The notes under the pieces are model-generated. The model searched no databases and was not told the origin of the DNA. It was given only the letters and a program-made list of their open reading frames with translations. A stretch of 64,000 bases of DNA from Escherichia phage CMSTMSU, in the sequence record MH494197.1; one strand, given 5' to 3'. The translations under genes and the position numbers were made by a program. Numbering within the stretch: position 1 is the first letter of the stretch; every line of letters starts with the position of its first letter. Positions 1 to 13,017 of this stretch are shown piece by piece.

Positions 1-267
1 ACTTTCAGTATCCATAACAGTGACCGAACCGCGTTTAGTACTTGCATCGTAATAAATTGTCGTGCTACCTTTTTCGTCTTCTTCATGGAACGGCCCGTTT
101 TTAAATGCTTCTGGCTGGATCTCTAAATCCTTTAAAACAATCTCGCCAGTACTTTCATTGGTCATCGCTACAGTGCACTGAATGAATTTTTCACTACTTA
201 CATCTAACGACGCATTAACAGCGAAAGAGGAAACAGATAAAGCCGTGGCGATGATTGCAATTTTCAT
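1..267 (-). CDS. secreted hypothetical protein, 3' end outside window
   Basis: Minus-strand ATG (A at 267) preceded by AAGGATAATCAA; N-terminus MKIAIIATALSVSSFAVNA resembles a cleavable signal peptide; frame open to window edge, so absent from ORF track. Confidence 0.5.
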   Translation of the reverse strand, partial: MKIAIIATALSVSSFAVNASLDVSSEKFIQCTVAMTNESTGEIVLKDLEIQPEAFKNGPFHEEDEKGSTTIYYDASTKRGSVTVMDTES

Positions 268-310
268 TTGATTATCCTTAGTTACGGGAACCGCTCTTGC
301 GATGTAAAAT

Positions 311-338
311 ATTATACAGTACTAAAAACTATTATCAA
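311..338 (-). promoter_or_regulatory. sigma70-type early promoter (read on minus strand: TTGATA-16-TATAAT)
   Basis: Member of the repeated element GATGTAAAA(C/T)ATTATAC...TTGCAAGTACTTT seen 7-8 times in 0.3-5 kb; lies just upstream of CDS 1..267. Confidence 0.5.
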
Positions 339-677
339 GTACTTTATGATTTTTATAAAACATTTCAGCAGTGATATTTTACCCGTTGGCTGTACTTTAT
401 CCAGAATTTTTGATGTCCGGCCGTCCAAATGAATATGATCCGTAAACCGTAAACCAGTAGTTACCCTCAGTGTTTACATGTACAGCATAATAGGGAACGC
501 CCGCGATTCATCACTAGTAAAGTGTGCTACCGTTCCGTTACATTCGCAGACGTTGATTTGATTTGTTCAAGCATTTTATTATTCCTTAGTTACCGTGGGA
601 ACTGCTCCTATGCAAAACATTATACGCGTTTAAAACTAATTGCAAGTATTTTAATAAAAGTATTTGAAAAATAGTTG

Positions 678-706
678 TTGACAAGTGCATCCAGTACTGG
701 CATAAT
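678..706 (+). promoter_or_regulatory. sigma70-type promoter, plus strand (TTGACA-17-CATAAT)
   Basis: Hexamers at 678-683 and 701-706 with CAGTACTG in the spacer; no ORF of 60 aa or more downstream before hairpin at 784-817. Confidence 0.45.
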
Positions 707-783
707 TACTACATCAAGACGAAACAGTCACTAACCCACCGGGTGCATAGATCCGTCTATTAAATGATTCAGTACTGAAAAGT

Positions 784-817
784 AACGGGAGTTATTATCT
801 CCCCGTTGTTATTTTGT
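784..817. terminator. hairpin terminator, probably bidirectional
   Basis: ACGGGAG-TTATTAT-CTCCCCGT stem-loop flanked by T/A runs; follows minus-strand ORF 909..1013 and a short plus-strand transcript. Confidence 0.45.
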
Positions 818-908
818 GGTATAAACAGAAGTCGCCTTTATTTGCTACGCCGCCAGTGTAACGCGAGGAATAGTCACCCGACTTCTGCTATTACCAGTGT
901 ATCATCAT

Positions 909-1013
909 TCAATTCGCGCAAACGGCTGGATCTTGTACGCCGATTTTGTCGGCATGTTCCCGCATAGATTTAACCAGTGCTTCCAGTTGGGAAAGAGTAG
1001 TGATATTAGCCAT
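909..1013 (-). CDS. small hypothetical protein (34 aa)
   Basis: Minus-strand ATG directly downstream of promoter 1063..1090; translates MANITTLSQLEALVKSMREHADKIGVQDPAVCAN; below ORF-track length cutoff. Confidence 0.3.
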   Translation of the reverse strand: MANITTLSQLEALVKSMREHADKIGVQDPAVCAN

Positions 1014-1062
1014 TGTATTTTCTCATTACCGTGGAGAACCATTTCTCCCTTTGATGTAAAAC

Positions 1063-1090
1063 ATTATACAGTACTGAAAACTAATTGCAA
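1063..1090 (-). promoter_or_regulatory. sigma70-type early promoter (minus: TTGCAA-16-TATAAT)
   Basis: Plus-strand ATTATA at 1063-1068 and TTGCAA at 1085-1090; followed on the transcript by conserved leader hairpin GGAGAA..TTCTCC. Confidence 0.55.
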
Positions 1091-1097
1091 GTACTTT

Positions 1098-1355
1098 TTA
1101 ATATTGTTTGTCGTCGTCTTCCTCGATGAATTGACCGACGAAATGATCTACTTTCGCTTTGAGGCTTTTATAATCTTCTTCTACTTCCTTTAAACGTTCC
1201 GTAGTATTCCAGTGCCTCAACATATGCGGCCTCAGCCGTTTTCTCACGCATAGCTAAATTCATTCCACGCGTTTCATCAAATAGCCAAAACCATCGGTGC
1301 ATTCACTGATAGACAATGATTTGTTTAACACATTGTACTTTATTACTTTACTCAT
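1098..1355 (-). CDS. hypothetical protein, frame breaks
   Basis: Minus-strand ATG at 1355 after promoter 1405..1432; translates MSKVIKYNVLNKSL...; continues in shifted frames to stop near 1098. Confidence 0.3.
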
Positions 1356-1404
1356 TAGATAACCTCAGTAAAGGCGGGAACTATTACCCGCCTCGATGTA
1401 AAGT

Positions 1405-1432
1405 ATTATACGCTTTTAAACTTAGTTTGCAA
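1405..1432 (-). promoter_or_regulatory. sigma70-type early promoter (minus: TTGCAA-16-TATAAT)
   Basis: Same conserved element; followed by leader hairpin GGCGGGTAATAGTTCCCGCC. Confidence 0.55.
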
Positions 1433-1443
1433 GTACTTTTAAA

Positions 1444-2034
1444 TTAATATTCGATTGATTCTACTACGCCATCAATAACATTGAATTGATACTCGTTTCA
1501 ATCAGTGCCGTAATGTTTTCCAGTAGTGAATTGATCCTCATATGCATTCTCTAAATCACGGTACAACTTGCGGGACAATTCACGAATAGTGTCAGTGAGT
1601 AGTTCCTCAAGCTCATTAACTAACGTTTTTGTTTTGCGGTTAAATCCAGTGTAAGCCGATTCAATGTACCCGCTTACAGTATTCTTGAGTAGTGGGAGTG
1701 CGAACGCTTTACACTCATCGCCAAACCATCTTCATTCAGCAAGTGACGGATTGAGCGATTAGTTAATGCTTTACCTTGCGTAAAACTTCACTGCGTCAAC
1801 GTGGTCAGTACTGATTGATGCACCGTCCCCGGGACCAAAAGCCACTGAATCGTAAATCAGCGTCATTAATGCCATATTCCGGTAGTACTGTTTCAGTATT
1901 CATTTCACTTTCAGAAAAATAATCATCGTTTAAGTTTTTTCACGTTCCCGAACCAGTTCGATAGCTGACGTTTGTTGTTCTGCGTTCAATTCAGAAAAAT
2001 CCATAACGAAAGTAGTAGTAGTGATAGTTTTCAT
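1444..2034 (-). CDS. hypothetical protein (~195 aa), several frame breaks
   Basis: Minus-strand ATG at 2034 behind GAGGG; N-terminus MKTITTTTFVMDFSELNAEQQ; open frames continue in alternating frames to about 1444. Confidence 0.3.
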
Positions 2035-2171
2035 TTTGTAACCCTCATTCAGTAGTTGATGTAAGTATTATACGCTTTAAAAACGTCAAACTATTTTATC
2101 AGGGAGTTTTGTGCCTATTCCTCGGCTACTTAACGGAAGTTACTTATTTGTTCCCCGTCCTGATGTAAAAC

Positions 2172-2199
2172 ATTATACGCCTTTAAACATAGTTTGCAA
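2172..2199 (-). promoter_or_regulatory. sigma70-type early promoter (minus: TTGCAA-16-TATAAT)
   Basis: Conserved element copy. Confidence 0.5.
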
Positions 2200-2241
2200 G
2201 TACTTTTAAAAATAGTTTTCAGTACTGAATATTAAAAAGTA

Positions 2242-2269
2242 TTGACAGCATTATCAGTACTAATATAAT
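2242..2269 (+). promoter_or_regulatory. sigma70-type promoter, plus strand (TTGACA-16-TATAAT)
   Basis: Consensus hexamers; CAGTACT in spacer; a 40-codon Cys-rich ORF (MTTANPRCNCNCN...) follows. Confidence 0.45.
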
Positions 2270-2695
2270 TCCCATGACAACAGCTAACCCACGGTGCAAT
2301 TGTAACTGTAATAAACTTTTTCTAGATACACTTCCGCACCCTATGGGCTACGGCTTATCTGCCAATGAATACATTATGCCAGTACTGACAAAATAAGTCA
2401 ATACCGGCAATTGTAAAGATTTGTAAACTGCTTATACTGCAATCGCGTCCGTGCTATAATAATAATAAGTGCTATGGTGTGACTTACCTTTTATTTCAGT
2501 ACTGAATGAATCCGAACGATTTGCATATGATGTTAATTTAAAGTACTTTGATTTGTTGATACGTTACACCACAGATCCGCGTAAGTAGTTTTATTAGTGG
2601 TAGTATCTTTACGGTTTTAACTTCAGTCATATACATATTAGTCATTTTTATTACTCCGAGTTATAGGGGAACTATTCCCGCTCTCGATGTAAAAC

Positions 2696-2723
2696 ATTAT
2701 ACGCTTTTAAACTTAGTTTGCAA
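2696..2723 (-). promoter_or_regulatory. sigma70-type early promoter (minus: TTGCAA-16-TATAAT)
   Basis: Conserved element copy; followed by leader hairpin GGGAATAGTTCCCC and a 35-codon ORF (MTNMYMTEVKTVK...). Confidence 0.55.
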
Positions 2724-2750
2724 GTACTTTTATTCAAGTACTGCAATCTT

Positions 2751-2991
2751 TTAGTACGGTACACGGTCACGCGGTTGCTTTCGGTCGAGCTTTATTTCTA
2801 CCACTCGACGCGATACACTATCAGGACTTTTCAACGCCGCTAACCAGTACTGTAATGATCTGGCTGTACTACGCTTTACAATGGCCCAACGTTTACCACG
2901 TTCCGATTGTACGCCCATATCTTTAAACGTTGCCCGTCCGGCGTGCTGCGATCCGAGCTTGTTCACGCGTCGCAAAATACTTAATATTCAT
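2751..2991 (-). CDS. hypothetical basic protein in a locally GC-richer segment
   Basis: Track ORF 2751..2975 plus upstream ATG at 2991 (MNIKYFATREQARIAARRTGN...) joined by one frame break; Arg/Lys-rich. Confidence 0.4.
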
Positions 2992-3347
2992 GTTGTTCTT
3001 ATCGTTGGTGTATGAATAAACACTATTATAAAGTACTATCATCGTGCAATAGTACTTTAAATCTATTCTATTACATTCCAACCATTGCAGCACGGATCGA
3101 TAGTGCTATATTTGAATCCGTCCGGTGTTTTTCTTGTCCAGTCTGTTCTAAAAAATAACATCATATGACGGGCCGCATCATTGCGATTAGTGCTATCGTT
3201 AATAAAGTCCCAACTGGTATAATGATTCATCGTTATTAATCCAAAGGCTTACATTCCAATGAGTTTTGTTTTTGTGACCTAAGAACATTTTGATTTAGCC
3301 ATTTTTAATCTTATATAGTGGGGAACTATTTCACCCTGATGTAAAAC

Positions 3348-3375
3348 ATTATACGCTTTTAAACTTAGTTTGCAA
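3348..3375 (-). promoter_or_regulatory. sigma70-type early promoter (minus: TTGCAA-16-TATAAT)
   Basis: Conserved element copy; followed by GGGTGAAATAGTTCCCC leader. Confidence 0.55.
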
Positions 3376-3576
3376 CTTTATTAAACTTATTTGTAATTTT
3401 GCACTGTCAGCCCATACTGTGAAACGATGCATATTATCCCATGCATCTTGTTTTAAATTTAAACTGTGCAATTCCTCAGTAGTTGCTATCCCCATTGGCT
3501 TACTACACACCGCGAAATTTTTCTCCATGTACTGATAAACCATCGTTAAATCATTTGAGATCATTACATGGATCAT
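3349..3576 (-). CDS. hypothetical protein (75 aa)
   Basis: Track ORF on the early strand; a 47-codon ORF (3599..3742) upstream may be the same gene split by a frame break. Confidence 0.35.
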   Translation of the reverse strand: MIHVMISNDLTMVYQYMEKNFAVCSKPMGIATTEELHSLNLKQDAWDNMHRFTVWADSAKLQISLIKLQTKFKSV

Positions 3577-3774
3577 TGAATCAGCTATGAAGTAGCGTAT
3601 TGTTCACGCACGGCAACGGTTCCCGATAAGCTGTAAATGTGAATTTTACAGTTTCAGCCGGAAGACCTTTCATTTCACGGAAGTTAACCGTGTTAAGCAT
3701 GATTTTATTGATTTGAGTCGCCATCGTTTTAATCTCTTAATGTAGCGGGAAGTGTTCCTGCCTCGATGTAAAAC

Positions 3775-3799
3775 ATTATACGCTTTTATCAGTATGCAA
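3775..3799 (-). promoter_or_regulatory. sigma70-type early promoter variant (13-bp spacer)
   Basis: Conserved GATGTAAAACATTATACGCTTTT element with ATGCAA in place of TTGCAA. Confidence 0.35.
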
Positions 3800-4063
3800 G
3801 TACTTTCTACAAATACTTTTAAAATAGTTTTCTCTATATAGGGAACTATTATTCAGTACTGCAACCATCCGTGGGAACTATCTTTCTATAGTAGTACTAT
3901 TATTCAGTACTGAATCAATCCACCAAATCATCCTGATACCCGTAAAACGGCCTCAGACGCATTCTAACGCATTAATACACCTAAGCTATACATTTGCACC
4001 ATTCCAATCTTGGCTGGGCCGTTTAAACGCGTTAAATTATTTTCAATTATTTTGTTTTAGCTA

Positions 4064-4090
4064 TTGACTCAGTACTAAAAAGCGTATAAT
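4064..4090 (+). promoter_or_regulatory. sigma70-type promoter, plus strand (TTGACT-15-TATAAT)
   Basis: Consensus hexamers; downstream transcript has 9-bp inverted repeat AGGGTGCGG...CCGCACCCT and no long ORF. Confidence 0.45.
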
Positions 4091-4096
4091 TACACA

Positions 4097-4270
4097 TAGA
4101 CGCGAGAAAGGAAACCAGAGGGTGCGGAATTACGCCCAAAATTCAAGATATAAAAAAAGGATACACCGCACCCTAGCAGGTTAACGCACTTTCTAGTACT
4201 GAAATATAGTAACATAGTCCGCTGATAGCAAGCAATTAAAACTTTTTCATCCGGTATTGCTTTATTTTTC
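4097..4270 (+). ncRNA. candidate small RNA
   Basis: No ORF between promoter 4064..4090 and stem AGCAAT..ATTGCT followed by TTATTTTT; contains TACGCCCAAAATTC motif. Confidence 0.2.
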
Positions 4271-4284
4271 CAGTACTGTATAAT
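4257..4284 (+). promoter_or_regulatory. promoter, plus strand (TTGCTT-16-TATAAT)
   Basis: ATTGCTTTA upstream also matches my recollection of the T4 MotA-box core; TATAAT at 4279-4284. Confidence 0.4.
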
Positions 4285-4379
4285 AGTTCCATCGTCGAGA
4301 AAGACTCAGCCCACCGTATAGTTACGCCCAAAATTCAGTACTGAAAATTTTAAAAATATCCGTCCGTGCGCGTTGTTCC

Positions 4380-4640
4380 CCCAGTTTATAAGATAATGAT
4401 TCCAGACTCCAGAACGGTTCATCCCACGCGGTAGGGGAACTATTGGAAAACAAAATAAAATTTTGATTTAGCCGTCTATACTTCCAGACGTGTAACCATC
4501 TAGCCGTTTAGCTGTCCAAACGTCAGCCATCCAGCCATCCAGAAATCTAGCCGTTTAGCCGTCCAGATGGATAGCCATTTCCAGACTTCTGAGGGCTAGA
4601 CATATCTACGTCCAAAATCCATCCGTGGTAACTACGCCCA
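4380..4640. repeat. cluster of short direct repeats (TCCAGA; TAGCCGTTTAGCYGTCCA)
   Basis: TCCAGA five times and TAGCCGTTTAGC(C/T)GTCCA twice in ~200 bp; locally GC-richer; no ORF. Confidence 0.5.
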
Positions 4641-4949
4641 AAATCCGTCAGTACTATACCATAGATCATCTTTGGAGTATTCAGTACTGCCATCAGCCCC
4701 TCACATGTTACCCTAGGAGGATGAAGATCACCGCGGTACTGAATACTGTTAGAGGGAATCCACCAGCTTGGTGGTATAATCGTTTAGATTAAAATCAGTA
4801 CTGACACCATTCTGTTAATATCAGTACTGTTATTGATTTTCATATGAGGTTCAAAAAGATGTACCCACCACAGGAGGAACTATCTTTTCTGTACTGTCTC
4901 ACAGGAGGTAGAGTAAATGAATCGTTCGCAACTCATCTCTATGTAGAAC

Positions 4950-4977
4950 ATTATACAGTACTGAATCATAATGTCAA
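4950..4977 (-). promoter_or_regulatory. sigma70-type early promoter (minus: TTGACA-16-TATAAT)
   Basis: Matches the conserved early promoter element; transcript runs leftward into the ORF-free repeat region. Confidence 0.5.
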
Positions 4978-5189
4978 TAGCTTTCTTTCATTATTCAGTA
5001 CTGATATTCTTGAGAACTACCCGACTACAAACATCATTATATCCCACAAATCATAAACGTCCCAACGTAAATTTCAACTTTCGAAGATCCAACTTTATTT
5101 CATAGGTACTCCAAAATTTTAGGATCGAGATTTAGGATGGAGTACTAACCAACTTTTGCTGAGCTCTGGATATTAAGGTGAAAGTAATA

Positions 5190-5500
5190 ATTCAGTAATT
5201 AATCATTGGTGATTACTTTTGATTACATTTGATGTAATTTGCAAAATGGAAAAGGAGCTTGAAACTAGTACGGCAGACTTCCTCTGCCTACTAGGTGCTG
5301 GTTTCATCTATCGGAGGGAAATGGATTAACCTTAGCAATACGTAACTGAATACGTTCTTGATTAAACGTGCACATTCCTGTACTCTATTACACTCTAGTA
5401 CACTCTAGTACTCAATACTGATCACTACAATGATTATAAATGATTACTTAAATGTTTATATATGATTACTTATGACTACATATGATTAGGGTTTACTGGG
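5190..5500. repeat. TGATTAC short-repeat cluster with adjacent direct repeat
   Basis: TGATTAC recurs about seven times in two sub-clusters; TACACTCTAGTAC is duplicated in tandem at 5390-5415. Confidence 0.4.
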
Positions 5501-5816
5501 AGAATCTAGTGATCGCATTTGTCCAGCTGAATTTTAACATATATAACATATGTTAAAGCCTGTCCAATGCTTCTGCGGAGCTTCTGTCTATATGTTGAAT
5601 TACTTCCTATATATAAGCATTAACATATAGTAGTACTGATTATGCTGTACATTCTCTTTAATATTATAAGGGTCTATAGCAATCTCGGTACATCTGTTAA
5701 ATGCATATCTATTAAATGCCAGTACTATTATAGATCTAATCCATGCTTGGTCAGTCGGTGGTAGTTTACTTATATAGTACTCTTTATAGTTTTTATGTTC
5801 TGCATAGTATACCTTA

Positions 5817-5996
5817 TTATTTCAAAGTACCATATAGTACTCTTAATAGGAAGTAGTACGTATTAGAGATATCATTACTAGTTAAAACAATCTTTGTACA
5901 CATATTAAATTCGTATTGAGTCATTGCTGGGATTAAATTGTTAACCCATGCTTGTTCGTTTTCTTTGAGTTTACTTATATAGAAGTCTTTATACAT
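5817..5996 (-). CDS. small-ORF array member
   Basis: Translates MYKDFYISKLKENEQAWVNNLIP...; below ORF-track cutoff; degenerate copies lie further left. Confidence 0.35.
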   Translation of the reverse strand: MYKDFYISKLKENEQAWVNNLIPAMTQYEFNMCTKIVLTSNDISNTYYFLLRVLYGTLK

Positions 5997-6228
5997 AGTA
6001 TTATCTCTATTAATATGATAGTACTAGTGTTAGTACTGAGCACAATTGTTCTTTATAGTTCTTAGGGTATATAGAATCTTTTATGCACTCATTGAAGTGC
6101 CATAGGTATAATCTTGGGTCGCATTCTTTATATATTTTACGCCATAGGTATATATCTTGGGTCGCATTCTTTATATATTTTTTACGGGGACGAATGTTAG
6201 TTTTCTTATATAGAAGTCTTTGTGTTCT

Positions 6229-6438
6229 TTATTCATATAGGAATAGTATACCTATGATGCCTGAGTACATGTTAGTACTGTTATTATTGGCGTTTGCGTT
6301 TAAAGTCATTTGAATACAATTGTTGTAGCATAATCTGCCGAAATATGTATCAGTACTTAAAGGTGCAGTAGTCCTTAGAAACATTTGTTCTGTGGGGCTG
6401 AGGTGTTTGGAGTAGAATTCTTTATGTTCATTATTCAT
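6229..6438 (-). CDS. small-ORF array member (69 aa)
   Basis: Track ORF MNNEHKEFYSKHLSPTEQMFLR...; close paralogue of 7020..7226; start overlaps upstream stop. Confidence 0.5.
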   Translation of the reverse strand: MNNEHKEFYSKHLSPTEQMFLRTTAPLSTDTYFGRLCYNNCIQMTLNANANNNSTNMYSGIIGILFLYE

Positions 6439-6634
6439 AGATATATAGGAGTGCCATTATGTTGGAGTATAGTTTATTGTTGTCATTTTCTTGCAGTGCT
6501 TGTATAGTACTACGTATACAGTTATTATAGCATATTTTTGTGAAATTATTTTGTAATTTCATTTTCATTGGTTTTGCTTTATAGAATGATTGTTTTGTGG
6601 GACTAAGATGATTTATGTAGAACTCTTTATACAT
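6431..6634 (-). CDS. small-ORF array member (67 aa)
   Basis: Track ORF MYKEFYINHLSPTKQ...; shares CYNNCIR and C-terminal hydrophobic YE motif with neighbours. Confidence 0.5.
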   Translation of the reverse strand: MYKEFYINHLSPTKQSFYKAKPMKMKLQNNFTKICYNNCIRSTIQALQENDNNKLYSNIMALLYIYE

Positions 6635-6651
6635 GTTAGTACCTTAGTGCT

Positions 6652-6837
6652 TTAGTGTCTGTATATAAGTAATAGTAAGAATACGTACTGCACCTGTTCA
6701 TCTTTAGTATTGAGTACTGTACGTATTGCGTCATTAAACAAAAATATAGTACTTGGGTCATTAGAATTTAAGGGGTTTACGGGGACGGCGTGTTTGTAGT
6801 TCCCTTTAACAAATTGTATATAGTATTCTCTATGCAT
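6652..6837 (-). CDS. small-ORF array member (61 aa)
   Basis: Track ORF MHREYYIQFVKGNYK... Confidence 0.45.
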   Translation of the reverse strand: MHREYYIQFVKGNYKHAVPVNPLNSNDPSTIFLFNDAIRTVLNTKDEQVQYVFLLLLIYRH

Positions 6838-6838
6838 A

Positions 6839-7027
6839 TCAGTACCTATATATTAGGGCGAGAATGTAGTACAGTTCATATGGAATGTAATTTGGGGTGA
6901 TAGCACACTGTGTATGGTAAATGAATTGTTGGGTATTTTTCTTATCCTTGATATCTATTGGGTTTAGTGGTATAAGCATTTGGGAGTTTAGTTCCAGATG
7001 GTTTAAGTAGAATTCTTTGTTATTCAT
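6839..7027 (-). CDS. small-ORF array member (62 aa)
   Basis: Track ORF MNNKEFYLNHLELNSQ... Confidence 0.45.
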   Translation of the reverse strand: MNNKEFYLNHLELNSQMLIPLNPIDIKDKKNTQQFIYHTQCAITPNYIPYELYYILALIYRY

Positions 7028-7226
7028 AGAAGAATATTAGTCCCATTACGCCTGAGTACTGAATATTTTTGTTATTGTTTTCTAAAGCTTCTAGAGTAAT
7101 ACGTATACAATTATTAAAGCAATCTCTGGCGTGTGGTGTATCTAAACGTAAAGGTGATACACTCCTTAGAAACATTTGTTCTGATGCACTGAGGTGTTTG
7201 GTGTAGAATTCTTTCTGTTCGTTCAT
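7020..7226 (-). CDS. small-ORF array member (68 aa)
   Basis: Track ORF MNEQKEFYTKHLSASEQMFLR...; AAGAGG 6 nt upstream of ATG; paralogue of 6229..6438. Confidence 0.55.
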   Translation of the reverse strand: MNEQKEFYTKHLSASEQMFLRSVSPLRLDTPHARDCFNNCIRITLEALENNNKNIQYSGVMGLIFFYE

Positions 7227-7236
7227 ATTGGCCTCT

Positions 7237-7425
7237 TTAGTACACGAAAGCTAGGTACAGTGTATGATACAGTACTCGATGATAGCTATCAAAATCTAGT
7301 ATACATGCTTTAGTGCACATAGTAAAGTACACTTTATCGTTTTGAGCATTGATACCGCGAGGTTTATCTAATAGATTAGTACTGAGGTACATTGGGAAAT
7401 ATTTTGTGTAGTATTCTTTATGCAT
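7237..7425 (-). CDS. small-ORF array member
   Basis: Track ORF 7237..7470 trimmed to internal Met giving family-type start MHKEYYTKYF. Confidence 0.45.
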   Translation of the reverse strand: MHKEYYTKYFPMYLSTNLLDKPRGINAQNDKVYFTMCTKACILDFDSYHRVLYHTLYLAFVY

Positions 7426-7807
7426 ATTAGTACCTGAATATAAGTAGGATAGTGTTATATAATTGGTCATAGCTACTACTATTTTCTATACTGCGTTCTA
7501 TGCAATTATTGAATCCCAGTACTGCCAAATCGTTATCCGGGGGACTTTATATCTGGCGTAGTGTTCAAATATACTGGGAGAAATTGTGTGTAGTATTCTT
7601 TGTGCATATTAGTACCTATATATTAGTAAAAGGATGTGATACAGTACTCGATTATAGTCTTCAATATATATCGAGGATTTAGTGCACTGAATGAAGTAGT
7701 CTTTTTCGTAGTTTTTTCTATACCCAATGGTTCTGTTGGTAGAAGGTGTTGGAGATACATTGGGAGTTTCTCTATGTAGTATTCTTTGTGGTTATTCATA
7801 TTATGTG

Positions 7808-7981
7808 TTATTTCGTGAAAACAAGGGTTAGTACTGCATAGTACAAGTCATACGTATCTTTAGGGTTAATAGCACCTTTAATACATTCTTTCATTACTTC
7901 ATTATAGATAATTTTAGTACTGAATGTATTGGATGTTACTATATCGGAATTAAGGTACGAGAGGTAGAATTCTTTATACAT
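7808..7981 (-). CDS. small-ORF array member
   Basis: Track ORF 7808..8044 trimmed to internal Met giving MYKEFYLSYL; longer form also possible. Confidence 0.4.
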   Translation of the reverse strand: MYKEFYLSYLNSDIVTSNTFSTKIIYNEVMKECIKGAINPKDTYDLYYAVLTLVFTK

Positions 7982-8080
7982 AGTTTGAAATATACGTAAT
8001 GAGGTGATGAAATTTCTTATCAGTACTGATAAGTTCCTGTACATGTTTTGTTAGTTTGTACGCGTTTTATAGAGTCCGGA

Positions 8081-8458
8081 TTATCGATTACAGTACTGTA
8101 CATGAATAGATCTTCTTCTGATAATTCTTTGCCGGTAATTCTTTGAGGAATTGCAGTACTGTATCAGTTTCGTTAGTACGTTGCTTTTGGAAGAAGTGCA
8201 TGTTATCGTGTATTTTTCTGAACCCATGCAGTACATATCTCCGATTTGGAATTGTGCAGTACTGATATCATGGGTGCTATTACAATTCCCGAAGAAGTAT
8301 ACATTCCCGAAAGATAGAATTATAGTGCACGGGATATTATCCATGTGTATATAGATAGATGCATTCTTTAGTGCTTTTGTGCTGGTATTAGTACTCAATA
8401 CTTTTAAATCAGTATTATAGATATTAATAAAAGCAAGAGCTATATTATTTTTCTTCAA
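8081..8458 (-). CDS. hypothetical protein inside the array (125 aa)
   Basis: Track ORF only; lacks the family motif and is low-complexity. Confidence 0.2.
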   Translation of the reverse strand: MKKNNIALAFINIYNTDLKVLSTNTSTKALKNASIYIHMDNIPCTIILSFGNVYFFGNCNSTHDISTAQFQIGDMYCMGSEKYTITCTSSKSNVLTKLIQYCNSSKNYRQRIIRRRSIHVQYCNR

Positions 8459-9207
8459 GTACGATTTGAGGTTCTTAGATACGAGAACATTTCTGGATTT
8501 TTCTTTTTATTTCGTTTCTTTAGTATATTCGGGTGATACGTATAAGATGATGTAACTGATTCTGCTTGAATACTGTTGAGGTATTTAAAGTGCTTAAGGT
8601 ATTGTTTGCTGTGTGCATTAAGTTTCATTTGGTTTCCTTTATACAGATGCGAGTGCGAGGATTTCCCTGAAGGGATTATCTTTTGTTAGTGCGTGATGAA
8701 TGCAGCTATTGAGATTAATATTTTTAGTACTGTTAGTTGCCGTTGTAGTACTTCACGAAGGTGTCGTACATGAAACGGTCTTTAATGCTTATGTGTTCTA
8801 TATAGTATTCTTGCATATTATTCCTTACATAGAGATGAGTTTCAGTACATCAATATACATATAACGTTCAGATGACTGTACACGGGTAGTGATAATCTCA
8901 ATCGATATATTTTAATTCCATGTGCAGATGATTGATGGTGCTGAATAAATGAGTTGTGCATACTTTGTTCTATGTGGTTTAGTTTATTGAAGTAGTACTC
9001 AAAAGTGTTCATGTCTACCTTAGATTGAGATTAGTTTAAGTACTTCTCTGTATGTGTACTTTTCGTTTTGTGCTTCTACTGTACATGATAGTAGGTATCG
9101 TTTTTTATCTCTTTTGTTCCCGACTGTGTAGTACCTTTGGAATTTATTATAGTTGTATCTATCTTTGTGCTGGAGTTTATAGATATAGAATTCTTGCATA
9201 GAGTACC

Positions 9208-9393
9208 TTAGATTGCTATCAGTTTCAGTACTTCAATATATGTGCGGTACTCTGCTTTAATTAAATTTGTACACACTGTAAGGGAATTTCTTTGTATAAG
9301 TTTATTGCCGCTTTTATACGCATTTCTCCACACATAGAGATGAGATCTTTCAGGCATAGATAGTTTATTTGTATAGTACTCAAATGTATTCAT
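9208..9393 (-). CDS. small-ORF array member (61 aa)
   Basis: Track ORF MNTFEYYTNKLSMPERSHL...; similar broken copy at about 8990. Confidence 0.45.
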   Translation of the reverse strand: MNTFEYYTNKLSMPERSHLYVWRNAYKSGNKLIQRNSLTVCTNLIKAEYRTYIEVLKLIAI

Positions 9394-9995
9394 ATATTAC
9401 CTCAAATAGAGATTAGTTTAAGTACTTCTCTGTATGTGTACTTTTCGTTTTGTGCATCTCTTGTGCTTGTATATAGGTATCCTCGACGATATTTGTTGCT
9501 CCCGTTCTTGTAGTTGAATTCGAACTTATTGTAGATGAATCTATCGCCGCTGTAATTTACTTAAGTACAATTCAATGCTCATAGTATTCTCTTTACATAT
9601 CAATAAGTTTCAGTACTGCTCTGTACGTGTACTTAGTTGTTAGTGCTTCTTTATAGCAATACAGAAGTAATGTTGTTTGTCTCTTATACTACCGCGTTTG
9701 TAGTACCATACATTGGAGTTGTGGGTGTACTTGTCCCTGTCGGATAGATTTTGGTAATAGTATAATATATGATTCATGGTAATGTAATTAGCCTTATTAT
9801 GTTAAAGTACTCGGTCCCCGTACACCTTGTAGAATATTATCAACTACATTTTCTTGGTGCAGGATTAATACATTCGGTGCGGTTCTTTTAAGGTTTTTAA
9901 AGTACTGTATTCTTGTTTAAGGATGAACTGTACATCTTTAGGGAGAATATCTAAGTAGTACTGGTGTATGTTCATAGTTTTCATATAGTACTCTT

Positions 9996-10181
9996 TTAGA
10001 ACTTAAAGATGAGGTTCATGATAGATAAGTACTTAGTTTCAGGAAATTGATGTTCTATTGCATAACGTGTCTCCAGTCTGAAGTCAAATTTATAAAAGGG
10101 ACTATTCATATCCATAGGTTCATTGGGAAATGAATCTCTGTATTGTTTGTGCAGCTTACTACAGTAGAATTCTTTATACAT
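9996..10181 (-). CDS. small-ORF array member (61 aa)
   Basis: Track ORF MYKEFYCSKLHKQYR... Confidence 0.45.
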   Translation of the reverse strand: MYKEFYCSKLHKQYRDSFPNEPMDMNSPFYKFDFRLETRYAIEHQFPETKYLSIMNLIFKF

Positions 10182-10182
10182 A

Positions 10183-10395
10183 TTAGTGCTCGATTAAAAG
10201 GGTTAGGATGTAATAGTATTGCATACTTTCTACCCCTTGTACAGCATTTCTTATTTTATTATTCCTGTACGAGTTCAAGAGTTTAGGACAATGTTTGAAG
10301 TTTATATAATTATTTTGTGTATACAGTAGGCTTTCTCGTAGACCTTTTGTTGGTAGTGCATCGATGTAGTACTGTTCAATGTTCATAGTGTTCAT
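10183..10395 (-). CDS. small-ORF array member, first unit (70 aa)
   Basis: Track ORF MNTMNIEQYYIDALPTKG...; abuts 9996..10181. Confidence 0.4.
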   Translation of the reverse strand: MNTMNIEQYYIDALPTKGLRESLLYTQNNYINFKHCPKLLNSYRNNKIRNAVQGVESMQYYYILTLLIEH

Positions 10396-10719
10396 AGAGC
10401 TACCAGTACTAAGATTTTTGATAATTGTTTGTTTCTATCCCGCAGATGTTGTTGTGTAAAATGCTCACTACAAGGGTATCAAGTGCATTGTTCAGCATAA
10501 GGTTACATCCAGTACTGTTATATTTTTTAGCTCAATTAGCCACGAACAATCCGCGAGAAATTTCCCGTACTCTAGTTCATTTAGCGTATTAATGTAGTAC
10601 TTAAGTGCATTTGTCATGTACAGTTCTCCTTATATTCCTTCTATAGTACATCAGTACTGAAAGGTTGTCAAGGGTTTTCTTTTTGGGGTAAATATGATAT
10701 AATGAATAAAGGAGGAAAT

Positions 10720-11866
10720 ATGTTACCTTTTGTAAGAATGGTTAAGTACGGGAATATTGCACCAGTACCGAAAAAATAAAGAAAGTTATAGCAGGATATG
10801 ATAATTTATATGTACTATATGGTGATGGTTCGCTATATGGTTGTGGAATCAATAACTATCAACAGTTAAATATTGATGGAACTGCTACACAAAATAATTG
10901 GGTACTAATTACCAATGGTGTTAGTAATGCATGGGCTGGTGGATACAATATTTTATATTTGAAAGAAGATAAATTTATAATGCACGGAACTAATGTCTCA
11001 TTAGGTTTAGGAAATACTACAATTCCATTAGGTGGAGTAGATGTAACTTCTTCATTCCCAGATATCTCTAATATTAAAATGATATCCATTGGTTTTGATT
11101 CAATGCACTATGTTAGTGCTGATGGTACAACTGTATATGGAAGAGGTATGAACACAAATGGTTCTGTTGGTTCAGGTAGTACTTACTCACAGAGTACTTT
11201 CACTTCAGTACTGAATAATGGAACTAATCAGGTTATTGATATATTTGGTAACGTTAATAATACAGTGCTTCTAACATCGAATGGTGAGCTTCGAGCATGT
11301 GGGACAAGTGCTTATGGTTCTATAGGAAATGAAACTGGTAAGTGGACATCGTTTGGTTTAAAATTATCTGGCACTAAAATAATGGGTGGTAATGGGTATA
11401 GTACGCTTGCATATACAAATTCGGGAATGTACCACTCAGGGTGGCAGTTAAATGGGGAACTAGGAAATGGTTTAGATACTAACGTACAGGTATATCCATT
11501 TCAATTTAACTCTAAAACGATAGATAGCAAGATAGATAAAATTGCCAAATCATCATCTGGGTCATATGTTAACATGTACTCAACAACAGAAGGAAAGATA
11601 TATACGACAGGTTCGTTTGGTAAAACGGGTCAACTACTGCATTGAATTTGTTCACCAATACATTAACACTTATAAATTACAATCCAGATACCGCCTCGTT
11701 GTATACGTGCACAAACTTCAGTGTTGTGTATGATGGTAATGAAACTATTGCTGTAAGTGGTAGTCCTACATATGTACCGAGGGCGTTGCCGCTAATAGAT
11801 GGACTACAATTCCATTACCCAAGTAATACTATGCCAGTACTTGATGCTGGCTTTTCTTTTGATTAA
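10720..11866 (+). CDS. leader-tagged RCC1-like repeat protein F1 (frame breaks)
   Basis: AAGGAGG then ATG; N-terminus MLPFVRMVKYGN; stop after 19 codons at an A-run (10766-10772), one extra A restores a reading colinear with paralogue 24753..25907; body = track ORFs 10959..11645 and 11642..11866. Confidence 0.7.
11833..11860 (+). terminator. intrinsic terminator between F1 and F2
   Basis: Hairpin GCCAGTA-CTTGA-TGCTGGC followed by TTTTCTTTT; same element recurs after most array genes. Confidence 0.6.
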
Positions 11867-11893
11867 ATATAGTATAATGAATAAGGAGGAATT

Positions 11894-13017
11894 ATGTTAC
11901 CTTTTGTTAGAATGTTTGATTATGGGAATATAATCGAAGTTAATAATATAAAGAAAAGTGTTGTTAGTTACACTCTTGAAATGTTTCTAATGCAAGATGG
12001 CACTGTATATGCACACGGTGAAGATTCAAACTATAATGCGGGTTTAAGTACACAGTTTGTATCGTTAGGAGCAGTTCAACAAATCACAACTGAAGTTGAT
12101 GACTTATGGTTAGGATCGTTTTCCGTTGTTATTAAAGGTGATAAAATATATGGTTCAGGTTCAACATATGCATTCACGAATTCTAATACTTTCCAACAAG
12201 GATATACTGACTGGGCTGTGTATTTCACTGGTATAGATGTTACCCAAATTAAAAAATGTTATGTGGTTATACAGCATTTATATTAATGAAAGACGGAACA
12301 CTTTATGGAAGAGGATGGAATCGAAGTGGTACATTAGGTTTAGGACATAAAAATTATGTTTCAGCGTGGACTGTACTTGACACTAATGTGGATAATATAT
12401 TTGGCGGTTACCTTGGCGATACATTGTTTAAGATTAAAAACGATGGAACTGTATATGGTTCAGGTTCAAATAACAGCTTTCAAGTTAAAGCAACATCGGG
12501 TGATGCAACCACATTTGTTCCGTTGTTTGATGATATATCTTATGATATAAAATGCAGTTTTGTTTCTGGTGTTGGTTTTGTAATGATAACATCTGATAAT
12601 AAAATATATGCAACTGGAACTACTTTTGCTGGTAGTGGTGCACATAGTAAAGTTTTTGATGTTGGTTTTACTATAGGTGATATGAGTAATATATATCATC
12701 CTGATTCGTTGGACTATTCGACTAGTGTTGTATTTTTAATTAATGCAGATACAAACAAACTAATAGCAACTGGGCATACCCATTTACGGAAGTAGTTCAA
12801 GTTCCTTCCATATTTTACAGCATTTCAAGAATTCAATTTTACATCGTTCAATTCGAATACACGATATAGTGGGTCTTTATACTGGAATACATTTTACGAA
12901 GGTAATAATGTATGGATGAATGGATATAATCCTGAAAATACGGGTGGAAAGAATTTCTCATTGTGTTCAATACCGTTAGATACTATTATTACTAAGCAAA
13001 TTGATTTACCTTTTTGA
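11894..13017 (+). CDS. leader-tagged RCC1-like repeat protein F2 (frame breaks)
   Basis: Track ORFs 11894..12286 and 12256..12795 plus tail; N-terminus MLPFVRMFDYGN; C-terminus ...TKQIDLPF matches ...FTKIDLPK of F7. Confidence 0.7.

What the first reader, a model, noticed from the sequence alone, without database searches (positions are those of the whole stretch)
5100..5620. TGATTAC repeats and palindromes next to the small-gene array
TGATTAC recurs about seven times in two clusters, TACACTCTAGTAC is tandemly duplicated, and there is a 9-bp-arm palindrome TTAACATAT-ATAAC-ATATGTTAA. These are iteron-like and sit at the downstream end of the array.
Basis: seen in the sequence. Interest (0 to 1): 0.45.

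Follow-up and report, generated by a model that had tools for sequence, protein, structure and literature searches.

The report
Jumbo phage chromosome end and flanking repeats
The short repeats flank the exact spot where this giant E. coli phage's DNA molecule ends (the edge of its ~20-kb terminal repeat), so they are most likely part of the signal that the DNA-packaging enzyme reads, and a leftover nanopore sequencing adapter sits in the assembly right at that end.

Summary
There are 4 exact TGATTAC copies plus about 5 one-mismatch copies, in two same-strand clusters with 10-bp phasing. There is also a 3-copy ACTCTAGTAC tandem and a palindrome with 10-bp arms.

The window comes from an Asteriusvirus, a PBECO4/121Q/G17-like jumbo coliphage. 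Position 5292|5293 is the physical right end of the chromosome, which is the inner boundary of the 20-21.5 kb direct terminal repeat (DTR). Six related records begin or end at the homologous nucleotide (...GGCAGACTTCCTCTGCCTACT|). One of them was confirmed by PhageTerm plus restriction digests.

The window's own assembly still carries an Oxford Nanopore barcode-11 adapter at 5293-5350, ligated exactly there. That stretch is an artefact.

The TGATTAC clusters lie on either side of the cut, at -87/-77 and at +123 to +143 in clean relatives. The stretch 5369-5478 has the strongest 10-bp periodicity in the whole 64 kb. Other elements here are shared with other Rak2-like genera:
- the TTTAGGAT tandem;
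- an inverted repeat abutting the cut;
- the |TAGYGG cut context.

The best reading is a multi-part terminus or packaging recognition site. It works like P1 pac or the T7 junction but is not a member of either family. A replication origin, a transcription control region and neutral slippage repeats remain possible. Interest is moderate.

The parts
1..5292 (.). Terminal 5.3 kb of the long direct terminal repeat (DTR). It carries minus-strand early-type small genes and, at about 3.8-5.29 kb, a noncoding end segment. In this assembly the stretch is riddled with 1-nt deletions.
   Evidence: It is collinear with G17 positions about 14.4-20.67 kb, inside G17's 20,668-bp DTR. Gap openings against BF17 run at about 35 per kb here and 4.5 per kb beyond 6.1 kb. 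The genes are frameshifted relative to G17.
4950..4977 (-). Perfect-consensus sigma-70-type promoter (TTGACA-16-TATAAT) that faces inward, leftward into the DTR, about 315 bp from the DNA end.
   Evidence: scores it 12 of 12. This is a consensus match only; its function is inferred.
5105..5146 (.). Element conserved across genera. A tandem TTTAGGATCGAGA / TTTAGGATGGAG (5118-5142) is bracketed by the inverted repeat GGTACTCC ... GGAGTACT.
   Evidence: Searches give the coordinates. The same element lies within about 70-200 bp of the homologous end in fENko-Kae01, Munch, 7t3, XbC2, GAP32 and Hallingskeid.
5184..5236 (+). TGATTAC cluster 1, on the DTR side. It is a 10-bp tandem TGATTACWTT: exact copies at 5210 and 5220, then a decaying unit TGATGTAATT. 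It is preceded by TAATCA-type units in the opposite orientation.
   Evidence: In clean relatives the copies are fixed at -87 and -77 from the cut, and vB_Ec-M-J has a third unit at -97.
5268..5291 (.). Inverted repeat abutting the cut: GTAcGGCAGA-cttcc-TCTGCCTAC.
   Evidence: Its DNA hairpin has a free energy of -6.0 kcal/mol, z = -5.35. CTCTGCCTACT is exact in all 13 Asteriusvirus loci. Inverted repeats of different sequence occupy the same position in fENko-Kae01 (TATCTTCT-N7-AGAAGATA) and Hallingskeid.
5292..5293 (.). Physical right end of the chromosome, which is the inner boundary of the DTR. The cut falls after ...CCTACT.
   Evidence: G17's record ends here. The records of fEgEco12, CRJP21, E9.1 and ELP-22 start here. 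The 21,525-bp DTR of vB_Ec-M-J starts here. [quoted passage not shown] In the window the ONT adapter is joined at exactly this base.
5293..5350 (+). ARTEFACT: an Oxford Nanopore native-barcoding adapter left in the assembly. It reads AGGTGCTG + barcode BC11 (with 1 extra A) + TTAACCTT + AGCAATACGTAACTGAA, and it replaces about 21-51 nt of genuine sequence (TTAGTGG...).
   Evidence: BC11 is GTTTCATCTATCGGAGGGAATGGA (PMC10170163). The ONT read-end adapter is GCAATACGTAACTGAACGAAGT (10.1101/2022.07.07.499093). The same string sits at the extreme ends of unrelated phage records from 9 host genera. It is absent from all relatives.
5369..5490 (+). 10-bp-periodic array on the unique side. It consists of ACTCTAGTAC x3 (5382-5411), then TGATTAC-type units at 5419, 5431, 5441, (5452), 5463, 5473 and 5483. 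The right half is 78% A+T.
   Evidence: It has the strongest lag-10 periodicity in the window. In 8 of 9 relatives the top lag-10 stretch of the locus starts +29 to +66 from the cut, including genomes in which the sequence is replaced by a different cassette. An invariant triple TGATTAC/TGACTAC/TGATTAC is present in all relatives.
5493..5531 (.). Conserved block GGGTTTA(G)C..GGGAGAATC(C)TAGTGATCGCATTTGTCCAG.
   Evidence: It is nearly invariant among the Asteriusvirus genomes. A similar GAATCCTTTCGATA block lies about +130 to +150 from the cut in fENko-Kae01, 7t3, Hallingskeid and GAP32.
5533..5557 (.). Palindrome TTTAACATAT-ATAAC-ATATGTTAAA, followed by a direct repeat GCTTCTG x2 at 5569-5587.
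   Evidence: -6.3 kcal/mol, z = -5.7. In 8 of 13 genomes the hairpin is kept; fEgEco12 and EC.P1 show two compensatory pair changes (ATAT to AATT). In 5 genomes of the 121Q group it is replaced by other sequence.
5600..5788 (-). Last, degenerate copy of the small-gene array (phrog_11711 family). It has no start codon in the window.
   Evidence: tblastn gives 82.5% identity to G17_00054. The translation is and the family assignment of the paralogues.

Best explanation
Shown. The region straddles the physical right end of the phage chromosome at 5292|5293, which is the inner edge of a 20-21.5 kb direct terminal repeat. Positions 5293-5350 are an Oxford Nanopore barcode-11 adapter that was ligated to that DNA end and survived into the consensus.

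Inferred. The short repeats belong to a multi-part, non-coding 'terminus module' that lets the packaging machinery cut replicated concatemers at one fixed nucleotide and regenerate the terminal repeat.

Proposed working:
1. A sequence-specific protein loads on the helically phased TGATTAC units on both sides of the cut. This would be the small terminase subunit or an accessory DNA-bending protein. The units lie at -87/-77 and from about +70 or +123 to +143, all in one orientation. The protein also loads on the cross-genus TTTAGGAT element.
2. The 10-bp phasing puts all sites on one face of the helix, so the DNA wraps or bends.
3. That geometry presents the inverted repeat GGCAGA/TCTGCC and the ...CTACT|TAGTGG junction to the large terminase nuclease.
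4. The hairpin-capable repeat next to the cut may help prime or protect the end while the repeat is duplicated, as proposed for T7.

The palindrome at 5533-5557 is probably a separate element. It may be a hairpin at the 3' end of the small-gene array transcripts or a dyad binding site. It is dispensable for end formation, because 5 of 13 relatives lack it.
For: Terminus position:
- The G17 record ends at the base homologous to 5292, and its DTR is 20,668 bp.
- fEgEco12 starts with the reverse complement AGTAGGCAGAGG... Its ends were determined with PhageTerm and confirmed by restriction digests.
- The 21,525-bp repeat of vB_Ec-M-J begins at the same base.
- The CRJP21, E9.1 and ELP-22 records start there too.
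- The window's own adapter junction is at the same base.

Across genera, the records of fENko-Kae01 (PhageTerm), Munch and XbC2 start at the homologous nucleotide. The context ...GATA|TAGYGG followed by (C/A)AGTACTG is shared.

Repeats flank the cut. The copies at -87 and -77 are invariant. The triple at +123/+133/+143 is invariant as well; it shifts by 30-31 bp in genomes with an insertion.

Periodicity is unique in the window. It is retained next to the cut in 8 of 9 relatives, even where the sequence has been swapped for cassette B.

The inverted repeat at the cut folds significantly. Inverted repeats of different sequence replace it in two other genera.

The other DTR boundary has no such repeats or periodicity. 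That fits a single elaborate recognition or initiation site.

Precedent: P1 pac has 4 + 3 TGATCA/G hexamers flanking the cleavage site, bound by PacA/PacB with IHF/HU-induced bending (PMC10028697). A T7 hairpin intermediate in DTR processing was proposed by Chung et al. 1990, cited in PMC4925675.
Against: - No binding or cleavage data exist, so the functional link between the repeats and the cut rests on position only.
- TGATTAC repeats are specific to this genus. fENko-Kae01 has AAAGTACT repeats instead and no clear 10-bp periodicity.
- The whole 1.4 kb on the DTR side is 0.9-1.0 conserved, so conservation of cluster 1 is not specific to it.
- The first ~120 bp on the unique side are mosaic, and the distance from the cut to the right-hand triple varies (123, 143-144 or 153-154 bp).
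- Several records that start at this base may have been re-oriented to match earlier ones, so they are not all independent.
- The GC-skew sign switch at about 5.5 kb and the AT-rich array would also suit an origin.
Confidence: 0.5

Rival explanations
1. Replication origin. The phased TGATTAC units would act as iterons for an initiator, and the 78% A+T stretch at 5419-5490 would be the unwinding element. The origin would simply happen to lie next to the DTR boundary.
For: - The repeats are direct, in one orientation and phased at one helical turn, next to an AT-rich stretch.
- GC skew changes sign at about 5.5 kb, from about -0.1 to +0.2/+0.28, although genes stay on the minus strand on both sides. 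Cumulative skew has its minimum here.
Against: - No initiator-like gene is adjacent. The neighbours are phrog_11711 and phrog_7352 proteins of unknown function with no Pfam domain.
- There is no DnaA box and no IHF consensus.
- Rak2-like phages encode a T4-type replisome (PMC5259590). From general knowledge, such replisomes start from promoter/R-loop or recombination intermediates rather than from iterons.
- The units have a 7-bp core, much shorter than classical 17-22 bp iterons.
- The repeats are split by the chromosome end, so the right-hand DTR copy would carry only half of the 'origin'.
- Elsewhere in the window the skew follows gene orientation.
Confidence: 0.13
2. Transcription control region. 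The repeats and the palindrome would be operators, UP-like elements or terminators. They would separate leftward transcription of the small-gene array from the early DTR genes, or regulate the early promoters near the DNA end.
For: - Several sigma-70-like promoters lie within 220-340 bp of the end and face inward, including a 12/12 consensus at 4977->4950.
- The palindrome lies about 45 nt downstream of the last array gene, and its stem shows two compensatory changes.
- CBB, a related phage, has RpoD-like early promoters with UP-like elements in and next to its terminal repeat.
Against: - No promoter-like hexamers overlap the TGATTAC clusters.
- The palindrome is all A-T and is not followed by a T-run on either strand, so it is not a canonical intrinsic terminator.
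- The palindrome is missing from 5 of 13 genomes.
- No Rfam family matches.
- This reading does not explain why the repeats bracket the cut at fixed positions.
Confidence: 0.17
3. No dedicated function. The 10-bp tandem units arose by replication slippage in non-coding DNA next to a recombinogenic DNA end and persist neutrally. Only the cut-site core (the inverted repeat plus TAGYGG) and the TTTAGGAT element matter for end formation.
For: - Copy number varies: vB_Ec-M-J has an extra TGATTACTTT unit, and ACTCTAGTAC occurs 2 or 3 times.
- The unique-side flank is mosaic, with two alternative cassettes, and conservation drops to 0.5 there.
- TGATTAC is absent from the homologous ends of other genera.
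Against: - The pair at -87/-77 and the triple TGATTAC/TGACTAC/TGATTAC are present in every Asteriusvirus examined.
- Ten-bp periodicity is kept even where the sequence is replaced.
- The insertion that moves the triple is 30-31 bp, about three helical turns.
Confidence: 0.2

Closest known systems
Bacteriophage P1 pac site (HEX4/HEX3 TGATCA/G hexamers; PacA/PacB with IHF and HU)
   Same: Both have a short repeat with a similar core (TGAT...). In both, the repeat is clustered on both sides of the terminase cleavage site and the site lies in a ~160-300 bp segment. In P1 the clusters are thought to be brought together by DNA bending (PMC10028697).
   Different: - P1 hexamers each carry a Dam GATC site that regulates cleavage; TGATTAC has none. 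GATC occurs only at 5086, 5123, 5420 and 5511.
- P1 packages by headful from pac and gives permuted ends; here both ends are fixed and form a ~20-kb exact repeat.
- No IHF consensus was found.
- The cut is placed asymmetrically between the clusters.
T7/T3 concatemer junction processing (exact direct terminal repeats, hairpin intermediate)
   Same: Both have exact direct terminal repeats with cuts at fixed nucleotides. Both have an inverted repeat able to form a hairpin next to a repeat boundary. In both, the repeat has to be duplicated during packaging.
   Different: The repeat here is about 100 times longer (20-21.5 kb against 160 bp). The terminase lineage is reported as T4-like in the related phage CBB. 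There is no sequence similarity.
Long-DTR phages (T5-like 10-11 kb repeats; Rak2-like jumbo phages CBB, fENko-Kae01, G17, fEgEco12)
   Same: They share the same genome architecture, with early small genes inside a long terminal repeat. For the Rak2-like group the cut site is homologous.
   Different: In the papers I could search, these phages are described only by repeat length. I found no description of the repeat and palindrome anatomy around the boundary.
Iteron-type plasmid/phage origins
   Same: Both show direct repeats phased with the helix next to an AT-rich stretch.
   Different: Here there is no adjacent initiator gene, the units are much shorter, and the array is split by the chromosome end.

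Membership tests
Physical terminus / boundary of a long direct terminal repeat (Asteriusvirus) | Homologous position is the end of the repeat in genomes whose ends were determined | tested here: met
   G17, fEgEco12 (PhageTerm plus restriction digests), vB_Ec-M-J, CRJP21, E9.1 and ELP-22 all begin or end at ...CTCTGCCTACT|.
Physical terminus / boundary of a long direct terminal repeat (Asteriusvirus) | Direct evidence of a free DNA end in this very genome | tested here: met
   An ONT ligation adapter with barcode 11 is joined exactly after base 5292.
Physical terminus / boundary of a long direct terminal repeat (Asteriusvirus) | Second copy of the repeat present at the other end of this genome | not testable with these tools
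   The window covers only 64 kb. The other boundary motif, AGGTTACCCGCC..., is not in it.
Sequencing-adapter contamination (5293-5350 only) | Match to a published ONT barcode, its flanks and the adapter | tested here: met
   The string is AGGTGCTG + BC11 (24 nt, with 1 extra A) + TTAACCTT + AGCAATACGTAACTGAA.
Sequencing-adapter contamination (5293-5350 only) | Same string at the ends of unrelated records and absent from close relatives | tested here: met
   It lies at the record ends of phages of Enterobacter, Klebsiella, Xanthomonas, Pseudomonas, Yersinia, Staphylococcus, Bacillus and Acinetobacter. It is absent from 33 related loci.
P1-type pac site | Clusters of one short direct repeat on both sides of the cleavage site | tested here: met
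   TGATTAC lies at -87/-77 and at +123/+133/+143, with more copies in cassette A.
P1-type pac site | Each repeat carries a Dam GATC site | tested here: not met
   TGATTAC has no GATC. Only one degenerate unit, TGATCAC at 5419, has one.
P1-type pac site | Headful packaging with permuted, imprecise downstream ends | tested here: not met
   Relatives have exact ends and a fixed 20-21.5 kb repeat.
P1-type pac site | Binding by PacA/PacB-like terminase and by IHF/HU | not testable with these tools
   No IHF consensus was found in 5000-5700. Protein binding needs experiments.
T7-type terminal-repeat processing | Exact direct terminal repeats with fixed cut positions | tested here: met
T7-type terminal-repeat processing | Hairpin-forming inverted repeat next to a repeat boundary | tested here: met
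   GTAcGGCAGA-cttcc-TCTGCCTAC ends 1 nt before the cut, with z = -5.35. Analogues occur in fENko-Kae01 and Hallingskeid. This establishes the sequence feature only; a role in repeat duplication is not testable here.
T7-type terminal-repeat processing | Short repeat (about 150-250 bp) and a T7-family terminase | tested here: not met
   The repeat is 20-21.5 kb. A T4-like terminase is reported for the related phage CBB.
Iteron-type replication origin | Multiple direct repeats at helical spacing | tested here: inconclusive
   The phasing is present, but the units are 10 bp with a 7-bp core rather than 17-22 bp.
Iteron-type replication origin | Cognate initiator gene adjacent | tested here: not met
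   The neighbours are phrog_11711 and phrog_7352 proteins of unknown function with no Pfam domains.
Iteron-type replication origin | DnaA boxes or host-factor sites plus an AT-rich unwinding element | tested here: inconclusive
   There are no DnaA boxes and no IHF sites, but 5419-5490 is 78% A+T.
Degenerate remnants of small-gene array units | Detectable similarity of 5100-5600 to the array units | tested here: not met
   blastn at word size 7 finds only 11-14 nt chance matches, E >= 0.02. Array homology begins at 5600.

The most novel reading that the evidence does not exclude
Rak2-like jumbo phages carry a T4-lineage terminase yet make exact ends with ~20-kb terminal repeats. They may do so through a previously undescribed, cross-genus conserved cut-site module. 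Its parts would be a TTTAGGAT tandem inside an inverted repeat, a hairpin-forming repeat abutting ...|TAGYGG, and a downstream GAATCC..GAT block. Genus-specific, helically phased short repeats (TGATTAC in Asteriusvirus) would be the landing pads that recruit and wrap the recognition protein on both sides of the cut. That would be a P1-pac-like logic re-used for site-specific generation of long terminal repeats.
Probability: 0.35. Interest if true: 0.6.

Novelty: new member of a known kind. Interest (0 to 1): 0.42.

Why it matters
How long-terminal-repeat phages cut concatemers at fixed nucleotides and duplicate a 20-kb repeat is poorly understood. For the Rak2-like jumbo phages the papers I could search report only the repeat lengths.

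Pinning the end to one nucleotide gives concrete targets for terminase binding, cleavage and mutational tests. So does listing the elements around it that are conserved (cross-genus) and those that are genus-specific. The same information helps to set correct genome starts for this group.

There are practical points too:
- The window's record contains a nanopore adapter, and its terminal repeat is unpolished, so its genes there are frameshifted. Both should be corrected.
- The same adapter contamination marks the ends of many unrelated public phage records.
- An adapter junction can be read as a free, built-in marker of a physical DNA end.

Tried and rejected
- Array remnants: rejected. There is no similarity between 5100-5600 and the array.
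- Structured RNA: an Rfam scan of 3500-6500 at E <= 1 found nothing. No tRNA was found.
- Coding potential: the two small ORFs across the site (5203-5307 on the minus strand, 5219-5329 on the plus strand) span the chromosome end and the adapter, so I dismissed them.
- Genome-wide enrichment of TGATTAC: rejected. The count is at chance level; only the local clustering is significant.
- Matching repeats at the other DTR boundary: none. There is no TGATTA within 400 bp on either side and no periodicity.
- Canonical terminator for the palindrome: rejected. The stem is A-T only, there is no T-run, and 5 of 13 relatives lack it.
- DnaA boxes and IHF sites: none.
- IMG/VR scan for the terminus 17-mer: it returned 121Q plus five unrelated contigs that share only 18 nt, which was not informative.
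- The window-specific 62 nt after the cut: I first treated it as a divergent cut-site variant. I rejected that once it matched ONT barcode 11 and the adapter.
- Literature: two searches failed on term length. A search for an AGTACT motif in jumbo phages found nothing.
Full report
**What the window is.** Megablast of 4000-7000 finds 40 phage records. All are jumbo coliphages or Salmonella and Enterobacter phages of the PBECO4/121Q/G17 group (genus Asteriusvirus, about 350 kb), at 84-92.5% identity. Records of 366-384 kb hold the match twice, which shows that they include a long direct terminal repeat (DTR).

**The observation.**
- TGATTAC occurs exactly four times in the region (5210, 5220, 5441, 5463), all on the + strand.
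- One-mismatch copies on the same strand lie at 5419, 5431, 5473 and 5483, with a further one at 5359.
- Window-wide the motif is at chance level: 19 against 17.3 expected for exact matches, and 334 against 320 at one mismatch or fewer.
- Locally it is strongly clustered, with 8 TGATTA in one 2-kb bin against about 1.2 elsewhere. The units are spaced 10-12 bp apart.
- The 'TACACTCTAGTAC duplication' is a 10-bp unit, ACTCTAGTAC, in three copies at 5382-5411.
- The palindrome has 10-bp arms and lies at 5533-5557. It is one of about 9 such perfect inverted repeats in the window, against about 1.6 expected.
- Units of both kinds form one continuous 10-bp-periodic array. The 110 bp from 5369 have lag-10 self-identity 0.618, the maximum of the whole 64 kb (mean 0.272, sd 0.046, runner-up 0.436).

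- In G17 (a linear record of 370,817 bp), gene 1 at position 153 recurs at 350,302, so the DTR is 20,668 bp.
- The last 126 nt of the G17 record align to window 5172-5292. The record ends ...GGCAGACTTCCTCTGCCTACT.
- fEgEco12's ends were determined with PhageTerm and confirmed with restriction digests; its DTR is 20,993 bp (PMC13070987). It starts with the exact reverse complement, AGTAGGCAGAGGAAG....
- The 21,525-bp repeat of vB_Ec-M-J starts at the same base.
- The records of CRJP21, E9.1 and ELP-22 start there as well.
- CTCTGCCTACT is exact in all 13 Asteriusvirus loci examined.

The window equivalent of this end is 5292|5293, between the two TGATTAC clusters.

**An artefact that doubles as evidence.** The 62 nt after 5292 differ from every relative. 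Searched on their own, they match the extreme ends of unrelated phage records from nine host genera, in a modular way: some records share everything, some only the last 25-28 nt, and one only the first part.

The string is AGGTGCTG + GTTTCATCTATCGGAGGGA(A)ATGGA + TTAACCTT + AGCAATACGTAACTGAA.
- The middle part is Oxford Nanopore barcode BC11 with one extra A (PMC10170163).
- The last part is the start of the ONT read-end adapter GCAATACGTAACTGAACGAAGT (10.1101/2022.07.07.499093).
- An Enterobacter T7-like phage record ends with the identical string.

So 5293-5350 is adapter. Such adapters are ligated to free DNA ends, so this one shows, in this very sample, that molecules end at base 5292.

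Consistent with an unpolished nanopore consensus, the DTR part of the window has about 35 gap openings per kb against BF17, and 4.5 per kb beyond 6.1 kb. Most are 1-nt deletions and half lie in homopolymers. The DTR genes are frameshifted relative to G17. Small deviations of motifs in the window are therefore probably errors. An example is TGATTAG, where relatives read TGATTACG.

**Anatomy around the cut, in clean relatives**.

DTR side:
- a TTTAGGATCGAGA/TTTAGGATGGAG tandem inside the inverted repeat GGTACTCC...GGAGTACT (window 5105-5146);
- TGATTAC at -87 and -77, with a third unit in vB_Ec-M-J;
- an inverted repeat, GTAcGGCAGA-cttcc-TCTGCCTAC, ending 1 nt before the cut (DNA hairpin -6.0 kcal/mol, z = -5.35).

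Unique side:
- TAGTGG, then CAGTACTG motifs;
- a mosaic segment with two alternative cassettes: cassette A in the window, BF17, 121Q, EcMJ, EC.P1, TH47 and UE-S1, and cassette B in G17, fEgEco12, phAPEC6, WPEC3, UB and SD-6;
- an invariant triple TGATTAC/TGACTAC/TGATTAC at +123/133/143, or +143/153/173-type offsets where a 30-31 bp insertion is present;
- a conserved GGGG..GAGAATCCTAGTGATCGC block;
- the palindrome.

In 8 of 9 relatives the most 10-bp-periodic 110-bp stretch of the locus starts +29 to +66 after the cut, including the cassette B genomes.

Mean pairwise identity among 12 genomes is 0.9-1.0 throughout the last 1.4 kb of the DTR. It falls to 0.50 at exactly the cut.

**Other genera.** A sensitive search with the G17 junction finds the TTTAGGAT element in fENko-Kae01, Munch, 7t3, SE_PL, PHA46, XbC2, GAP32 and Hallingskeid.
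- In fENko-Kae01 (DTR of 19,736 bp by PhageTerm), Munch and XbC2, the element lies 54-128 nt from the first base of the record.
- The cut context is shared...AGAAGATA|TAGCGGAAGGGGG in fENko-Kae01 and 7t3...ACAGATA|TAGTGGAAGGGG in GAP32 (XbC2's record stops at the bar)...AAGAAGATA TAGTTGCAGGGG in Hallingskeid, and ...CCTACT|TAGTGGCATAT in Asteriusvirus.
- fENko-Kae01 (TATCTTCT-N7-AGAAGATA) and Hallingskeid (CTTCTTGTA-N9-TACAAGAAG) have an inverted repeat of unrelated sequence at the same place.
- TGATTAC repeats are not found there; fENko-Kae01 has AAAGTACT repeats instead.
- A GAATCCTTTCGATA block sits about +130 to +150 in these genera.
- The opposite DTR boundary (G17 350,150) has no TGATTA cluster and no periodicity.

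**Interpretation.** It is shown that the region contains the chromosome end, which is the DTR boundary. It is inferred that the repeats are part of the recognition and cutting site used by the packaging machinery. The arrangement recalls three known systems:
- P1 pac, whose 4 + 3 TGATCA/G hexamers flank the cleavage site and are bound by PacA/PacB with IHF/HU bending;
- phased binding sites in other pac and cos sites (general knowledge);
- the hairpin intermediate proposed for T7 repeat processing (Chung et al. 1990, cited).

It is not a member of the P1 family, because there are no GATC sites in the repeats, no headful permutation and no IHF consensus. It is not a member of the T7 family either, because the repeat is 100 times longer and a T4-like terminase is reported for the related phage CBB.

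**Rivals.**
- Iteron origin. In favour: the phased repeats, an A+T content of 78% at 5419-5490, and a GC-skew sign switch at about 5.5 kb without a change of gene strand. Against: no initiator next door, no DnaA boxes, a T4-type replisome in the group, and an array split by the DNA end.
- Transcription control. In favour: inward-facing consensus promoters 220-340 bp from the end, and compensatory changes in the palindrome stem. Against: no promoter hexamers over the repeats, and a palindrome that has no T-run and is missing in 5 of 13 genomes.
- Neutral slippage repeats. In favour: copy-number variation and mosaicism. Against: the invariant pair and triple, and periodicity that persists after cassette replacement.

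**Novelty and score.** The position of the DTR boundary is already implicit in public records and in one 2026 paper. The anatomy around it, its conservation across genera and the adapter artefact were not described in the literature I could search. It is best filed as a new member of a known kind, a phage end-formation or packaging site. Interest is moderate.

Noticed in passing
window 5293-5350; also the record ends of OP272491-3, PQ039555, OQ790078, OP583595, OQ378339, OR809231, OR670591 and others: Oxford Nanopore native-barcode and adapter sequence is left inside the assembly. In the window it is BC11. The same contamination sits at the ends of many unrelated public phage records.
   Followed up: yes
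window 1-6141: There are about 35 gap openings per kb against BF17, and 4.5 per kb further right. They are mostly 1-nt deletions, half of them in homopolymers. The DTR genes (homologues of G17_00050-53) are frameshifted. This looks like an unpolished nanopore consensus confined to the terminal repeat and its edge.
   Followed up: partly
whole window, densest in 1-12 kb: AGTACT occurs 231 times against about 22 expected from base composition. It often appears as CAGTACTG inside or beside sigma-70-like promoters, and 12-20 nt after the cut in all genera. I found no published description.
   Followed up: partly
window 1376-1440, 2149-2207, 2664-2731, 3335-3375, 3745-3806: A ~65-nt cassette is repeated upstream of each minus-strand DTR gene. 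On the minus strand it reads AGTACTTGCAAACTAAGTTTAAAAGCGTATAATGTTTTACATCGAG.... It carries a near-consensus -35/-10 pair, which suggests one early promoter per small gene.
   Followed up: no
window ~5500 (profile 1-12000): GC skew flips from about -0.1 to +0.2/+0.28 at the DTR boundary, although genes stay on the minus strand. The small-gene array therefore has a C-rich coding strand, unlike the rest of the window.
   Followed up: no
window 5600-11000, minus strand: The small-gene array consists of many paralogues of one family of unknown function (phrog_11711, about 60-77 aa). The copy nearest the chromosome end (5600-5788) has lost its start codon.
   Followed up: partly
window 5157/5158: The window lacks a 43-nt element present in all 12 relatives: GCTGGAGCCTCAAGGGGTAATTGAATTTTACCCCGAAGGGTAAAAGGGTAATTG. 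The element holds a 7-bp hairpin and three GGGTAA repeats. The absence could be a real deletion or an assembly error.
   Followed up: no
12 Asteriusvirus loci aligned, -1400 to +1300 around the cut: There is a conservation cliff exactly at the chromosome end. Mean pairwise identity is 0.97 just inside the repeat and 0.50 just outside. Alternative sequence cassettes lie beyond it, which suggests that the DNA end is a recombination hotspot.
   Followed up: partly
window 3800-5000: The last ~1.4 kb of the repeat is non-coding but 0.9-1.0 conserved. It holds several promoter-like sites on both strands and hairpins with CAGTACTG arms (for example 4829->4796). Small early RNAs are possible.
   Followed up: no
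window 6099-6181: A 43-nt tandem repeat in 2.0 copies with 97% matches lies inside the array region.
   Followed up: no
L010-L014 (IMG/VR contigs): Five unrelated viral contigs share an exact 18-mer, AGACTTCCTCTGCCTACT, with the terminus and nothing else. This is probably chance.
   Followed up: no
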